From: Octopus vulgaris
Taxonomy: Eukaryota
Length of the DNA stretch: 64,000 nt
Reading direction: 5' to 3'
Assembly: GCA_951406725.2 (NCBI GenBank)
Contig: OX597835.1
Span: 43,524,001 to 43,588,000, forward strand
Shown here: positions 25,682-42,346 of the stretch, one piece after another
Position numbering within the stretch: position 1 is the first letter of the stretch
Layout: each line of letters opens with the position of its first letter
Position numbers and translations under genes: made by a program
Notes under the pieces: model-generated
Told to the model about the DNA's origin: nothing
Databases searched by the model: none
Seen by the model: the letters and a program-made list of their open reading frames with translations, nothing else

Positions 25682-25890
25682 TTCAAAATGTGACCTTGTG
25701 TGTACCGTTGGCGATTTTTTTCCCCTCTGTCTTCTCTTCTCTGGATCTTTCCTTCTCCTATGTTTCCGACGAAGAGCTCCGCTCGAAACGTTAAACTCTC
25801 CTTCTTTCCTGAGCGTCCAATAATACTATATTTGTTCCACGTCCTCGCGTTGTTGTCTTTTTTTTGTGCTTTCTTGTTTGGATTAACTTT
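25682..25890 (+). mobile_element. Family E: ~210-bp hammerhead-containing element in (TA)n (Penelope pLTR or retrozyme-like)
   Basis: Homologous to copies at 39143, 40030 and 41480; all TA-flanked. Confidence 0.8.
25762..25796 (+). ncRNA. Minimal type I hammerhead ribozyme (CCGA core variant)
   Basis: gttt-CCGACGA-a-gagc tcc gctc-GAAA-cg-TT-aaac. Confidence 0.6.
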
Positions 25891-25901
25891 ATATATATAT
25901 A

Positions 25902-26237
25902 TCGGGCCGACCAAAGCCTTGAGAGTGGATTTGGCCGACTGAAACTGAAAGATGCCCGTTGTATACATACATACATATATATATATATGTGTGTGTGTGT
26001 GTGTGTGTGTGTGTGTGTGTGTGTGTGTGTATGTATGTATGTGTATATATGTGTGTGTGTTTGTTCCCACCACCACCAACATCGCTTGACAACTGATGCC
26101 GGTGCGTTTAAGTCCCCGAGACATAGTGGTTCGGCAAAAGAGAGCGATGGAATAAGTACTAGGGCTTACAATTTGCTCGACTAAAGGCGGTGCTCCAGCA
26201 TGGCCGCAGTCAAAATGAGTTAAACAAGTAAAAGAAT
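25902..26237 (+). mobile_element. SINE family A, 5'-truncated
   Basis: Body and tail of family A. Confidence 0.85.
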
Positions 26238-26902
26238 ATATATATATATATAGTTCAGCTCAAAAGAGTGAAAACAGATTGTTTTATTTTGTTTCGGGCA
26301 GAATTTACAAAAATATGACAAATGAGAGAGAGAGAGAGAGAGAGAGAGAGAGAGAGAGAGAGAGAGAGGTGTGAACCGTTTCAATCAACCAATTGTGTTT
26401 AAATCTTGTGCAACTTATATCACTGGAATTCCACCATTAATACTTCTACATGGTGTGGTGTCTAGTCTTAACTGATATCTCTAAAGCTAAATGTTCCTTA
26501 TCTACAAGCTTTATTACATTAAGAAGAAACGGAAAACTTCTAACGAGAAGACGACTTTCTTCCCCTCTTACTTTCGACTTTTCTGGTTCCCCCACCCCTC
26601 GTCCTTTCAGACTTCCGGTTCTTTCTTCTATCTTTCAGCATATTTTACTTATCAATAATGGTTATGTAGGAAGCGCGAGTAGGAAGTATCAGAACGGCGA
26701 TAAATGACCTCGACAGTTTAGTAGTATGGCGGACTACATGCTCCAAGTTCAGATCACGCAGGAACGACTTTGCGTTTGGTTTTTGTTATGTTTTTTTCTT
26801 TTTTTTATTATTATACCTCTTCGCAAGTGGTGGGTAAATGGTTGGGTGGTCTACAAAGTGACAAGTCTAGTCATGTTTGACTTTTATTTTTTTATTTCTT
26901 TC

Positions 26903-27311
26903 AGGCGCAGGAGTGGCTGTGTGGTAAGTAGCTTGCTAACCAACCACATGGTTCCGGGTTCAGTCCCACTGCGTGGCATCTTGGGCAAGTGTCTTCTGCT
27001 ATAGCCCCGGGCCGACCGATGCCTTGTGAGTGGATTTGGTAGACGGAAACTGAAAGAAGCCTGTCGTATATATGTATATATATGTGTGTGTTTGTTTGTG
27101 TGTCTGTGTTTGTTCCCCTAGCATTGCTTGACAACCGATGCTGGTGTGTTTACGTCCCCGTCACTTAGCGGGTCGGCAAAAAAGAGACCGATAGAATAAG
27201 TACTGGGCTTACAAAGAATAAGTCCCGGGGTCGAGTTGCTCGATTAAAGGCGGTGCTCCAGCATGGCCGCAGTCAAATGACTGAAACAAGTAAAAGAGAA
27301 AAGAGAAAGAG
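26903..27311 (+). mobile_element. SINE family A, full length; a decayed - strand copy follows tail-to-tail to ~27610
   Basis: aggcgcaggagtggctgtgtgg head through tail. Confidence 0.92.
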
Positions 27312-27741
27312 AGGCATTAGACTACGGCCAGGCGGGGGTACTCCCTTTAAGCGTGTTAACCGAACGAATCGATTCCGGTAGTCACTTTGCTTTTTAGAGT
27401 TCTGTACTTATTTTATGCCGAATCGCTTAGTTACGAAAACGTAAACCACTAGTCATAAATATATACGACGGGATTCTTTCGGTTTCCGTCTACCAAATCC
27501 ACACACAAGGCTTTTGCCGTCCCGAGGCTATAGTAGAAGGCACTTGCCGAACTGAACCCAGAACCATATGGTTGGTAAGCAAGCTTCTTACTACACAGTC
27601 ACGCCTGCACTATGTATATAAATATTTACATAATCACAATGAGGATATTTAGACCTCTTAGAGGGATATTTTTTATCCTAGATACACTGGTTTGATATAT
27701 TGTAGTTTCAAGAGATATTTCTTCAATGAATATCTCTATAT

Positions 27742-28406
27742 AGGCGCAGGAGTGGCTGTATGGTAAGTAGCTTGCTTACCAACCACATGGTTCCGGGTTC
27801 AGTCCCACTGCGTGGCACCTTGGGCAAGTGTCTTCTACTATAGCCTCGGGCCGACCAAAGCTTTGTGAGTGGATTTGGTAGACGGAAACTGAAAGAAGCC
27901 CGTCGTATATATGTATATATATATATATTTCTTTACTACCCACAAGGGGCTAAACATAGAGGGGACAAACAAGGACAGACAAAGGGATTCAGTCGATTAC
28001 ATCGACCCAGTGCGAAACTGGTACTTTATTTATCGACCCCGAAAGGATGAAAGGCAAAGTCTACCTCGGCGGAATTTGAACTCAGAACGTAACGACATAC
28101 GAAATACCGCTAAGCATTTCGCCCGGCGCGCTAACGTTTCTGCCAGCTCGCCGCCTTAATATATGTATATATATATGTATGTGCGTGTGTGTTTGTGTGT
28201 CTGTGTTTGTTCCCCTAGCATTGCTTGACAACCGATGCTGGTGTGTTTATGTCCCCGTCACTTAGTGGTTCGGCAAAAGACACCGATAGAATAAGTACTG
28301 GGCTTACAAAGAATAAGTCCCGGGGTCGAGTTGCTCGACTAAAGGCGGTGCTCCAGCATGGCCGCAGTCAAATGACTGAAACAAGTAAAAGAGTAAAAGA
28401 GTAAAA
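27742..28406 (+). mobile_element. SINE family A with a - strand SINE B (27926-28157) in its internal (TA)n
   Basis: Both halves of A flank a complete reverse-complement B. Confidence 0.9.
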
Positions 28407-28758
28407 TATATAAACGGCAAAATGTCTGCGTGTGTGTCCTTTACAGAAATCCACAATTTTTCAGTTAGAGGGCTCGCACTTTCTATGGTCATTCAAAACC
28501 ATCCAAGGGTGGTCATGCACATCTTTACATTTCCCCAGTCACACCGCAAAGCCATTCAAAAATCAATAGAAGTGACTTTTTTGTGAATTTTCTATCCCAA
28601 ACCCAATCAAAATGCCCAAAACTTGATACGCCAATTGAATGCCAGCTAGCTGTATGTGATTGGTCGGAGATTTGGACAGTACTCTCGTGTATGTGCGCAC
28701 GCAGCTGTATATGCATGCACTAGCACTATGACCCGGCAACGCCGGGTCATAGTGCTAA
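28407..28758 (+). mobile_element. Non-autonomous Helitron-like element, copy 1
   Basis: Very similar to 35648-36011; 3' GC-rich hairpin then ctaa (CTAG in copy 2); no TIR or TSD. Confidence 0.75.
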
Positions 28759-40101: not shown

Positions 40102-40136
40102 GTTTCCGACGAAGAGCTCCGCTCGAAACGTTAAAC
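40102..40136 (+). ncRNA. Hammerhead motif (CCGA variant) in a family E copy (40030-40255), after the (TA)n of a SINE A 5' half
   Basis: gttt-CCGACGA-agagctccgctc-GAAAcgTT-aaac. Confidence 0.6.
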
Positions 40137-40304
40137 CCTCCTTCCCTTCTTTCCTGAGCGTCAATAATACTTTAATTGTTCCACGTCCTGCGTCGCTGTG
40201 TTTTTTTCCCCTTTTTTCTCTTTTTTTCTGTGTTTTCTTGTTTGGATTAACTTTATATATATATATATATATATATATATATATATATATATATATATAT
40301 ATAT

Positions 40305-40675
40305 CTTTTACTCTCTTACTTGTTTTGGAGCACCGCCTATAGTCGACCCCAGGACTTATTCTTTGTAAGCCTAGTACTTATTCTATCGGTCTCTATTGCC
40401 GAACCGCTAAGTTACGGGGACGTAAACACAACAGCATCGGTTGTCAAGCGATGTTGGGGGGAGAAACACAGACACACACACACACAGACACGCGCGCGCG
40501 CACACACACACACACACACACACACACATATATATATATATATACGACGGGCTTCTTTCAGTTTCCGTCTACCAAATCCACTCACAAGGCTTTGATCAGC
40601 CTGAGGCTATAGTAGAAGACACTTGCTCAAGGTGCCACGCAGAGGGACTGAACCTGGAACCATGTGGGTGGCAAG
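40305..40675 (-). mobile_element. SINE family A
   Basis: Reverse complement of family A. Confidence 0.85.
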
Positions 40676-41236
40676 CAAAGAAACAAAGGAATAAAAGGTC
40701 TAGAATCAGGAATTCATTGGAGCTAACGTTTCCATTTAAGAAAAGACAATATTCTTTTCTCTCTCTGGAAATAAGAGGGTAACTGAAGTACATGTTTCTG
40801 TCCTTTTAAGCGTCACCAGCAAAGAAGTCCGTCTGGTTTAAAGTCGCTTATTGACATGCTACAACCTTAAAAGCCATGGACAGGGTGTCTCCTTTTTCTA
40901 TCTTGTATATCGCTACTATAATGGTTCCTTTTCATTGGAACTGGCTGGGCCTTGCCACTACCAAGTAGATCCACCCTGTTTTCTCGCCACCTCCTCCTCT
41001 GACGATTCCTGCCACATCTAAGCCTCTCCTTCCTAGAATACCGGTTCTTTCGACTTTATTCCTAGCTCATATCTTTCCTGCTGGTGTAGATTTACAGAGG
41101 TTCGATCTCACCGGTCTCACAAGGCCTGCAAAGATTACGCATGTTACCGCTTCTGCAAAACCTCTCTCTCTCTCTCTCTCTCTCTCTCTCTCTCCATATA
41201 TATATATATATATATATATATATATATATATATATA

Positions 41237-41438
41237 TGTAGGTCTCGGGTTGATTCGGGGTTAACCACAGTAAATAAGGTACTCAATACACAGCAGAGTA
41301 AAATTAATTTATTATATAGAAGGAGCTTCTACAGGACTAGAACTGTTTCATTCAAGAGAAATCATCAGGAAGCTTCCTGATGATTTCTCTTGAATGAAAC
41401 AGTTCTAGTCCTGTAGAAGCTCCTTCTATATAATAAAT
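41237..41438 (-). mobile_element. Palindromic Penelope-like element with hammerhead core, in (TA)n
   Basis: Perfect 66-bp arms 41307-41372 / 41373-41438, no spacer, ~70-bp one-sided tail; CTGATGA 41377-41383, GAAA 41396-41399. Confidence 0.7.
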
Positions 41439-41557
41439 AAATATATATATATATATATATATATATATATATATATATATTCAAAATGTGACCGCGTGTG
41501 TACCATTGGCGATTTTTTTCCTCCGTCTTCCCTTCTTTGGATCTTTCCTTTTCCTAT

Positions 41558-41592
41558 GTTTCTGACGAAGAGCTCCGCTCGAAACGTTAAAT
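41558..41592 (+). ncRNA. Minimal type I hammerhead ribozyme in a family E copy (41480-41700)
   Basis: gttt-CTGACGA-a-gagc tcc gctc-GAAA-cg-TT-aaat. Confidence 0.68.
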
Positions 41593-42346
41593 CCCCCTTC
41601 TTTCCTTCCTTCCTGAGCGTCCAATGATACTATTCTTGTTCCACATCATCGCGTTGTGTTTTCTCTTTGTGTTTTCATGTTTGGATTAACTTTGTATTTA
41701 TATATATATATATATATATATATATATATACACACACACACACACACAGAGCCATACATTAATGCATACATATACGCTTACAAAAAGTGACTGAAACAAA
41801 AACTAAGGGAAATTGTGTTTGTGAAAGGTGAACAAAGAAACTAAGAAAAAAAATGAAAAGTATGGAGAGGAGAGTGAGAGTGAGAGACGAAATAAACTAG
41901 TAAGAGACACATAAAGGGGAGATAGAGAGATACAGAAGAAATATAGATATATATAGAGAGTAACAAAGACATAACAAGTGAGGGAGAGGGGGAGAGATTT
42001 AGTAAGAGAGAGAGAGGGGGAGATATAATGAGAAAGAGGTAAAGAATGATGAGAGTGGGAATAGTGGTGGGAGGAAAGTGTGATGTCAGACGACAAAAAA
42101 AAAATGTAGCAGACGTCAATATAAAAGTTAGCGATTTTGACTGATTTGGCTACAAAATTTGTGCATTTCAATGACTGAGAACAGGTCTAAAGAAATGGTA
42201 GAACAGTTCTTTAAAAGCTGTGGCACAACGTAGAGGACATATGAAGGAAAGTTTCATAGAAAATATTTTACTGATAAATTTTTTTACGGTAATAGTTTGG
42301 TATTATGGAAAAGACACATAAATAGACATACTGACGTGTATGTCTG

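What the first reader, a model, noticed from the sequence alone, without database searches (positions are those of the whole stretch)
25682..41700. Family E: a ~210-bp (TA)n-associated element carrying a minimal hammerhead ribozyme, 4-5 copies all on the + strand
Seen: copies at 25682-25890, 39143-39300, 40030-40255 and 41480-41700, plus a 3' piece at 34994-35075, are all flanked by (TA)n. Two share the 5' end ttcaaaatgtgacc and all end near (gg/gt)attaact. Each of the four main copies reads stem I - C(T/C)GACGA - A - gagc/gctc stem II - GAAA - very short stem III - UH - stem I. In three copies stem III is the palindrome ACGT; the 39150 copy has a different, longer but still pairing stem I (tagttt/agacta). 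Known: minimal type I hammerheads with palindromic stem III that cleave as dimers occur in Penelope-like pseudo-LTRs and animal retrozymes. Inference: this is a non-autonomous, self-cleaving, microsatellite-targeting retroelement family. It may yield small or circular RNAs, or cut host pre-mRNA if this region is an intron.
Basis: partly seen in the sequence, partly recalled or inferred. Interest (0 to 1): 0.85.

Follow-up and report, generated by a model that had tools for sequence, protein, structure and literature searches.

The report
Penelope retrotransposon ends carrying hammerhead ribozymes
These repeats are the short end pieces of a protein-coding jumping gene (a Penelope-like element) and carry a predicted self-cutting RNA motif of a known kind; over 14,000 sit in this genome, mostly beside TA repeats, and most stop at the same point, likely because the copying enzyme starts near the front of the element's RNA and runs off it.

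Summary
The copies and their hammerhead motif are real, but they are not a stand-alone family. Walking 5' from genomic copies leads through a CA-rich UTR into an RT + Cys-linker + GIY-YIG ORF flanked by the same repeat: it is the pseudo-LTR of a Neptune-like Penelope element. The core occurs 14,266 times, evenly on both strands; 9,551 motifs are fully intact. 65 of 69 copies have (TA)n at the 3' end (control 6%). Paired and catalytic positions resist inherited changes, so the motif is under selection in master copies. New here: 5' ends are not randomly truncated. 57 of 61 copies that reach a zone 66-110 nt upstream of the core stop there (18-fold jump), with no excess at the cleavage site. Likely cause: internal reverse-transcription start, then run-off at the RNA's 5' end. 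The dominant subfamily carries the weakening U4C change. The 39143 copy's longer stem I is partly host flank. Cleavage, circles and a host intron are unshown. The scan noted this kind before on other DNA of this genome (e1-8669779). Known kind, new member; the fixed boundary is the testable part.

The parts
25682..25890 (+). Solo pseudo-LTR, subfamily A1, full unit from the 5' boundary to the 3' ATTAACTTT, (TA)n on both sides
   Evidence: 97.8% to 5'UTR-linked pLTR L221 and 97.4% to ORF-linked L111
25762..25796 (+). Minimal type I hammerhead: stem I GTTT/AAAC, core CCGACGA (U4C), extra A, stem II GAGC/GCTC, GAA-ACGT, predicted cut after 25792
   Evidence: sequence; cleavage inferred from the known consensus
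35000..35075 (+). 3' fragment of a subfamily C pseudo-LTR, no ribozyme
   Evidence: shares TCTGCTAATACTTTGCATGTACC with subfamily C copies
39152..39298 (+). 5'-truncated, worn subfamily C pseudo-LTR; hammerhead at 39152-39186 with non-palindromic ACAT
40029..40254 (+). Solo pseudo-LTR, subfamily B; intact hammerhead 40102-40136 (C4, ACGT), predicted cut after 40132
   Evidence: 98.0-98.6% to ORF-linked pLTRs L096, L109
41480..41693 (+). Solo pseudo-LTR, subfamily A2; intact hammerhead 41558-41592 (U4, ACGT, stem I closed by G-U), predicted cut after 41588
   Evidence: 94.2% over 138 nt to ORF-linked L106

Best explanation
The repeat is the pseudo-LTR of a Neptune-like Penelope retrotransposon present in the same genome, and the short copies are likely dead-end products made when the parent's reverse transcriptase starts inside the element RNA about 200 nt from its 5' end and runs off that end. 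Steps: (1) shown: the same repeat flanks an RT + Cys-linker + GIY-YIG ORF, and the upstream copy joins the 5'UTR through a constant TTAACTTTATATAC. (2) inferred: a promoter in the upstream pLTR starts the RNA about 66-110 nt before the ribozyme core, as in Drosophila virilis Penelope. (3) inferred: the endonuclease nicks (TA)n DNA, the nicked end pairs with the UAUAUA at the pLTR/5'UTR junction and primes cDNA there; the fixed 3' end and the TA flank are shown. (4) inferred: on the uncut, linear RNA the enzyme copies through the ribozyme to the 5' end, giving a solo pLTR; the pile-up of 5' ends is shown. (5) inferred: long and full-length copies, which often run past the boundary, come from templates without that end (tandem read-through, or a circle closed after two hammerheads cut as a dimer). 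The ribozyme is kept by selection on master elements and is carried passively by solos; it is likely slow, dimer-dependent and, in the main subfamily, weakened by U4C. Identity as a PLE pLTR: about 0.97; the run-off mechanism: about 0.55.
For: Linkage: 18 of 20 ORF-bearing loci hold the repeat on the ORF strand within the 9.9 kb fetched, 17 downstream, 7 upstream, 6 both (20 chosen from the 30 loci). ORF: 816 stop-free codons with ADKG, YIDD, CX4CX2C linker, IYCIKC..YIGQT. Junction constant in 6 of 6 upstream pLTRs, one with a mismatch; 45 exact genomic matches. Boundary: 4,712 matches to a 22-mer just inside vs 68 to a 22-mer just outside; in 89 copies sampled by an anchor 3' of the ribozyme, stop rate 0.34%/nt over +44..-65 and 6.05%/nt over -66..-110, 57 of 61 stopping there; older subfamily C: 0 of 30 run past it, 23 begin at it (by eye). 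Copies carrying a short 5'UTR tail, which cannot come from solo masters, also stop there: 4 of the 5 that reach it. No excess at the cut site: 3 of 87, 0.32%/nt. TA: 65 of 69 at 3', 59 of 86 at 5', control 6.2%. Selection: inherited variants at 2 of 26 constrained vs 27 of 87 flank sites (p=0.02), private changes equal (1.7% vs 1.8%). Precedents: TSS in the upstream pLTR (PMC2377424), internal RT start on unprocessed RNA (PMC11167929).
Against: No RNA 5' end was mapped, so the boundary equals a start site only by inference; no clear initiator or TATA motif was tested. The outside 22-mer is more variable among subfamilies than the inside one, so the 70-fold drop overstates the cliff somewhat. 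In PAc the RT start site was not homologous to the cut DNA (PMC11167929), unlike the TA-pairing step proposed here. 4 of 7 full-length copies in the junction sample run past the boundary, which needs the second template. Solo-solo identity is slightly higher than solo-linked (linked closer or equal in only 14 of 37). The sampled copies all come from the first 18 Mb of contig C1. Copies are related, so p-values are optimistic. No intact ORF was seen: even L095 is broken near its N-terminus. Folding does not favour the active shape: monomer MFE has off-path pairs and the dimer MFE is another duplex.
Confidence: 0.6

Rival explanations
1. Solo pLTRs are themselves masters: each holds the promoter, is transcribed into its (TA)n flank and is re-copied in trans, so the short unit has become a SINE-like or retrozyme-like non-autonomous family.
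For: Discrete unit; about 300 cores per 5'UTR junction (14,266 vs 45 exact matches); solo-solo nearest identity marginally higher than solo-linked; non-autonomous PLE derivatives are known (PMC8557442; bioRxiv 10.64898/2026.07.22.740005).
Against: Every main subfamily has ORF- or tail-linked members; tail-bearing copies share the boundary; ends do not lie at the cleavage site and copies are not tandem, unlike retrozymes.
Confidence: 0.2
2. The template is long (tandem or circular) and the enzyme stalls at the boundary because of RNA structure, a bound protein, or pairing of ATGT with the TA target.
For: Many junctions use AT microhomology at ATGTGAC; a weak hairpin is predicted just upstream (-11.9 kcal/mol over 130 nt).
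Against: An equally good TATGT site at -7 stops only 3 of 80 copies; ends spread over TCTTTCAAA, which has no TA homology; the boundary holds in subfamilies whose upstream sequence differs.
Confidence: 0.15
3. Solos are left by recombination between the two pLTRs of full-length insertions, as suggested for rotifer solo pLTRs (PMC3846280).
For: Direct repeats 95-97% alike flank full-length copies.
Against: A solo would inherit the upstream pLTR's 5' end, which runs past the boundary in 4 of 7 full-length copies but in only 4 of 89 sampled copies; it would need tens of thousands of full-length insertions.
Confidence: 0.05

Closest known systems
Neptune-clade Penelope-like elements (PMC8557442, PMC3846280: passages read)
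   Same: Single ORF with RT, Cys-rich CX2-5CxxC linker and C-terminal GIY-YIG; pseudo-LTRs in partial tandem; inverted 5'-truncated partners; optional 3' tail; microsatellite insertion bias.
   Different: Clade not fixed by a tree (Nematis also has the linker). Long CA-rich 3'UTR. Overwhelming excess of solo pLTRs with a fixed 5' boundary, which I did not find described.
Minimal hammerheads of metazoan PLEs (Cervera and de la Pena 2014, PMC4209133: parts 1-2 of 4 read)
   Same: Type I, 4-bp stem I, extra nucleotide between 9 and 10.1, G10.1-C11.1, palindromic 15-16 region, thousands of single dispersed copies tied to truncated PLEs.
   Different: Stem II is 4 bp, not 7-8 bp as in schistosome motifs; main subfamily has C at position 4; dispersed copies are one defined unit, not random truncations.
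Poseidon_Ac of green anole (Frangieh et al. 2024, PMC11167929: parts 1-2 of 4 read)
   Same: Fixed internal RT start at the pLTR/ORF side, AT-rich target, uncut RNA as template, no ends at the ribozyme cut site.
   Different: Other clade; its start site is in the ORF and not homologous to the target, whereas here it is a UAUAUA that matches the (TA)n target; ribozyme lies about 380 nt before the ATG.
Animal non-LTR retrozymes (PMC7229834: passages; bioRxiv 10.64898/2026.07.22.740005: parts 1-2 of 5)
   Same: Short non-coding repeats with a type I hammerhead, related to PLE pLTRs, with dispersed monomers.
   Different: Retrozymes are head-to-tail arrays with mostly canonical ribozymes that give circles; these copies are single pLTRs nearly identical to an autonomous element's ends.
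Drosophila virilis Penelope promoter (Schostak et al. 2008, PMC2377424: passages)
   Same: Transcript starts inside the upstream pseudo-LTR from a TATA-less internal promoter; the model used for the boundary.
   Different: Start site measured there, only inferred here; no intron was looked for by RNA here.

Membership tests
EN+ Penelope-like element | One ORF with PLE-type RT and C-terminal GIY-YIG endonuclease | tested here: met
   816-aa open frame, motifs; Pfam RVT_1 E 0.0016 and GIY-YIG E 0.0079, both under curated cut-offs; 428 homologues, best 120 at 40-58% identity
EN+ Penelope-like element | Partial-tandem pseudo-LTRs flanking the ORF | tested here: met
   6 of 20 ORF loci have the repeat on both sides
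EN+ Penelope-like element | Inverted 5'-truncated partner and optional 3' tail | tested here: met
   Inverted partners in 5 of 30 junction loci (L219, L222, L230, L241, L244); tails of about 110-540 nt
Neptune clade | CX2-5CxxC linker between RT and EN | tested here: met
   CSRSRCNTC at 684; pattern in 115 of 121 proteins. Shared with Nematis
Neptune clade | RT phylogeny groups with named Neptune elements | not testable with these tools
   No clade-labelled reference set was available
Neptune clade | Microsatellite insertion bias | tested here: met
   65 of 69 3' ends, control 6.2%
Minimal type I hammerhead | Core C3,G5,A6,G8,A9,G12-A15.1,U16.1,H17 with stems I and II, extra base after A9, palindromic helix III | tested here: met
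   39143 copy lacks the palindrome
Minimal type I hammerhead | U at position 4 | tested here: not met
   C4 in 52 of 75 copies, tied to subfamily; U4 in subfamilies A2 and C. U4C is a known natural, weaker variant (PMC3088659 passage)
Minimal type I hammerhead | Constrained positions conserved across master lineages | tested here: met
   2 of 26 vs 27 of 87 sites with inherited variants, p=0.02; no compensatory pair change inside the family
Minimal type I hammerhead | Self-cleavage as a dimer | not testable with these tools
   Needs an in vitro assay
Rfam hammerhead families | Match to a covariance model | tested here: not met
Non-LTR retrozyme | Head-to-tail array with a ribozyme in each unit | tested here: not met
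   Window copies are separated by unrelated DNA; sampled copies are single, with occasional adjacent pairs
Non-LTR retrozyme | Small circular RNA | not testable with these tools
   Only assembled contigs were on hand
Independent non-autonomous family (SINE-like) | Own lineage, distinct from autonomous ends | tested here: inconclusive
   Nearest identity 96.3% to linked vs 96.8% to other solos, 37 solos vs 50 linked; no tree built

The most novel reading that the evidence does not exclude
One element RNA has two fates set by its ribozyme: uncut linear RNA gives only 200-bp solo pLTRs by run-off from an internal, TA-primed start, while dimer cleavage and circularisation is the route to full-length copies. 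The hammerhead would then be the switch between abortive and productive retrotransposition, the U4C change would help explain the flood of solos, and the solos would be a fossil map of the element's transcription start, scattering tens of thousands of promoter-plus-ribozyme cassettes and lengthening (TA)n tracts.
Probability: 0.25. Interest if true: 0.7.

Novelty: new member of a known kind. Interest (0 to 1): 0.42.

Why it matters
What hammerheads do in Penelope elements and how pseudo-LTRs are regenerated are stated as open in the papers read (PMC8557442, PMC2377424, PMC11167929). This family gives a large natural record: a fixed 3' start, a fixed 5' boundary, no ends at the cut site, and subfamilies with U4 or C4. 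That makes a run-off/circle model directly testable by 5'-end mapping and in vitro TPRT. The ribozyme itself is of a described kind. About 9,500 intact motifs in one genome, some close together on one strand (40102 and 41558), raise a host-RNA question, but nothing here shows an effect.

Tried and rejected
Rfam scans found no hammerhead; the many miRNA hits are microsatellite noise. Strand bias rejected. The 39143 stem I as covariation rejected. N4 T as CpG decay rejected: it follows a non-CpG subfamily site in 20 of 22 copies. Pile-up of 5' ends at the cut site looked for, not found. Target-site duplications: 2 weak candidates in 67 copies, unresolvable in TA tracts. Folding: the dimeric ribozyme could not be scored, and MFE folds neither support nor exclude it. 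Expression: no RNA holder listed; four runs guessed to be RNA, held as contigs, cover the pLTR and parts of the 5'UTR/ORF start but cannot show ends, strand or circles. Host gene: 65 of 87 higher-complexity window frames scanned against Pfam gave only transposon domains, and no PLE ORF lies in the window; whether the region is an intron stays open. Alignment artefacts dropped: L208, L252, L289 first scored as long because of reference flanks, fixed; L229 and L241 scored long but are short by eye; L207 dropped as the inverted twin of L206. The Lunse et al. dimer paper was not held; I know it only through PMC6765202. Literature searches found no paper on this family or on a fixed solo-pLTR boundary; Repbase, Dfam and subscription journals were not searchable, and the one supplement of PMC13282606 and all bioRxiv supplements were not read.
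Full report
OBSERVATION. A relaxed hammerhead descriptor finds exactly these four sites in the window, with C3 at 25766, 39156, 40106 and 41562; 20 shuffled windows gave 0 hits 19 times and 1 hit once. 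Rfam has no hammerhead match. The window is G000:C22:43524001-43588000 of a 2.8-Gb animal genome, probably an octopus (earlier scan notes and my recall of the neighbouring SINEs; not tested). Three details fail. Strand: the core pattern occurs 7,089 times forward and 7,177 reverse, control 0. The 39143 copy: it starts at about 39152, belongs to an older subfamily C, and two of its six stem I pairs use TA that subfamily C lacks. The 35000 piece has almost no TA at its 3' side.

WHAT IT IS. Among the 30 closest copies the 3' end was fixed at GGATTAACT(TT) while several ran further 5'. Following them gave a CA-rich stretch of about 1.6 kb and then the C-terminal part of an RT/GIY-YIG frame. A search with that piece gave 1,514 candidates, 40 scored. 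Of 20 loci I extended, 18 hold the repeat on the ORF strand, 17 downstream, 7 upstream and 6 on both sides. L095 has 816 stop-free codons with ADKG, YIDD, a CX4CX2C linker and IYCIKC..YIGQT..H..VARHF; its N-terminal part is broken, so no intact copy was seen. Pfam scores are weak, but 428 homologues were found, the named ones from a shark, two snails, a coral and an anemone. The linker marks Neptune or Nematis (PMC8557442, PMC3846280, passages). The repeat is therefore the pseudo-LTR of a Neptune-like Penelope element. Window copies match linked pLTRs at 97.8% (25682), 98.6% (40030) and 94.2% (41480).

NUMBERS. 14,266 exact cores, 9,551 motifs intact from stem I to stem I with the ACGT palindrome, 496 exact subfamily C cores, and only 45 exact pLTR/5'UTR junctions. 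Forty evenly chosen 10-kb stretches held 8 insertions in 5 stretches, which scales to roughly 56,000 (Poisson range 24,000-110,000).

TARGET. In 90 copies sampled by an anchor 3' of the ribozyme (first 90 listed on contig C1), 69 had a recognisable 3' end; 65 of these have (TA)3 within 14 nt, as do 59 of 86 5' flanks, against 6.2% of random positions. The 3' run is the longer in 48 of 67 (median 24 vs 12 nt, p=5e-4). In full-length elements the upstream pLTR joins the 5'UTR through TTAACTTTATATAC in 6 of 6. The RNA thus has UAUAUA exactly where insertions end, which could pair with a nicked (TA)n primer (inference). In the anole element the start site was not homologous to the target (PMC11167929), so this step differs and is unproven.

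THE 5' BOUNDARY. 5' ends are not spread out. A 22-mer just inside the boundary has 4,712 matches, one just outside 68 (the outer one varies more among subfamilies). In 89 copies (L207 dropped as the twin of L206), 28 stop between +44 and -65 from C3 (0.34%/nt), 57 of the remaining 61 stop between -66 and -110 (6.05%/nt), and 4 run on. An equally TA-like site at -7 stops 3 of 80, so microhomology alone does not explain it. Subfamily C shows the same boundary: 23 of 30 begin there, none passes (by eye). Of 30 junction-bearing loci (30 of 45), 23 carry no more than a short 5'UTR tail; 5 of these reach the zone and 4 stop in it. Of the 7 that continue into the ORF, 4 run past it. At the predicted cut site only 3 of 87 stop, the background rate: the copied RNA was uncut, as found in vitro for Poseidon_Ac (PMC11167929, parts 1-2 read).

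THE RIBOZYME. The layout matches the minimal PLE hammerheads of PMC4209133 (parts 1-2 read): short stem I, extra base after A9, G10.1-C11.1, palindromic helix III, low activity even as dimers. In 75 copies sampled outside the motif, constrained non-CpG positions differ at 2.3% against 7.3% in flanks. Splitting the changes is more telling: variants shared by four or more copies hit 2 of 26 constrained sites, 3 of 6 free sites and 27 of 87 flank sites (p=0.02), while private changes are equal (1.7% vs 1.8%). So masters are under selection and inserted copies decay neutrally. U16 never varies in 75; H17 is T, C or A in 72. No compensatory pair change occurs inside the family. Position 4 is C in 52 of 75, tied to subfamily; U4C lowers activity in vitro (PMC3088659, passage). 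Folding keeps stems I and II in two of four window copies but adds off-path pairs. Cleavage is predicted, not shown.

MECHANISM. Best reading: transcription starts in the upstream pLTR (measured for D. virilis Penelope, PMC2377424, passages), the enzyme primes on TA DNA at the junction about 200 nt downstream and runs off the RNA's 5' end, leaving a solo pLTR; long copies come from tandem read-through or a ribozyme-made circle (proposed in PMC4209133). Rivals are self-propagating solos (0.2), a stall on a long template (0.15) and recombination (0.05). Solos are as close to linked pLTRs (median 96.3%) as to each other (96.8%; 37 solos, 50 linked), which does not exclude self-propagation.

HOST EFFECT. 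No host exon was recognised, so the intron idea is open. A solo has one ribozyme and cannot excise a circle by itself; 40102 and 41558 are both intact, on one strand and 1.46 kb apart, so a read-through RNA could in principle pair them.

NOVELTY. PLE hammerheads, their dispersal in thousands and (TA)n bias are published. Eight literature searches found nothing on this family or on a fixed solo-pLTR boundary; rotifer solos were put down to recombination (PMC3846280). An octopus repeat annotation lists 30 recently active Penelope families without ribozymes (PMC13282606, passages). The scan noted the same kind elsewhere in this genome (e1-8669779); a look-up by this sequence and one by the boundary idea found nothing. 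Verdict: new member of a known kind, interest 0.42, with the boundary as the part worth testing.

Noticed in passing
L334-L363 (G000:C1, not in the window): A second hammerhead family, 4,147 exact matches: stem I ACAC/GTGT, 5-bp stem II with a long loop, same extra A and ACGT. Many copies have a tRNA-like A/B-box head plus (AAT)n upstream and several form head-to-head pairs.
   Followed up: partly
L021 upstream flank and L236: Two copies join the start of the ORF or 5'UTR directly to the pLTR region, dropping the whole ORF: internally deleted derivatives or template jumps.
   Followed up: no
L219, L222, L230, L241, L244: Head-to-head inverted pLTR partners; in L219, L222 and L230 the inverted arm ends at the same 5' boundary, as if a second cDNA ran off the same RNA end.
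   Followed up: partly
L115, L116, L142: A subfamily with GTCATAC after GAAAC has a U-U mismatch in stem I.
   Followed up: no
L003 far upstream flank; L109 1-680: Fragments of other, diverged Penelope-like ORFs (26-35% identity for L109) near these insertions.
   Followed up: no
L095 3' UTR: The CA-rich UTR varies from about 1.2 to over 3 kb between copies through expansion of ACAT/AC runs.
   Followed up: no
window 41311-41436: Long near-perfect inverted repeat (about 60-bp arms) directly upstream of the TA tract of the 41480 copy; MITE-like.
   Followed up: no
window 43529-44047 +, 57398-57688 +, 58220-59152 +: Frames with zf-RVT (LINE), DUF7047 and integrase (LTR element) Pfam matches.
   Followed up: no
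window 54219-55101, 42309-42921, 7795-8325: Tandem arrays with periods of about 23, 8 and 9 bases; several abundant SINE-like families (D13, D15-D20).
   Followed up: no
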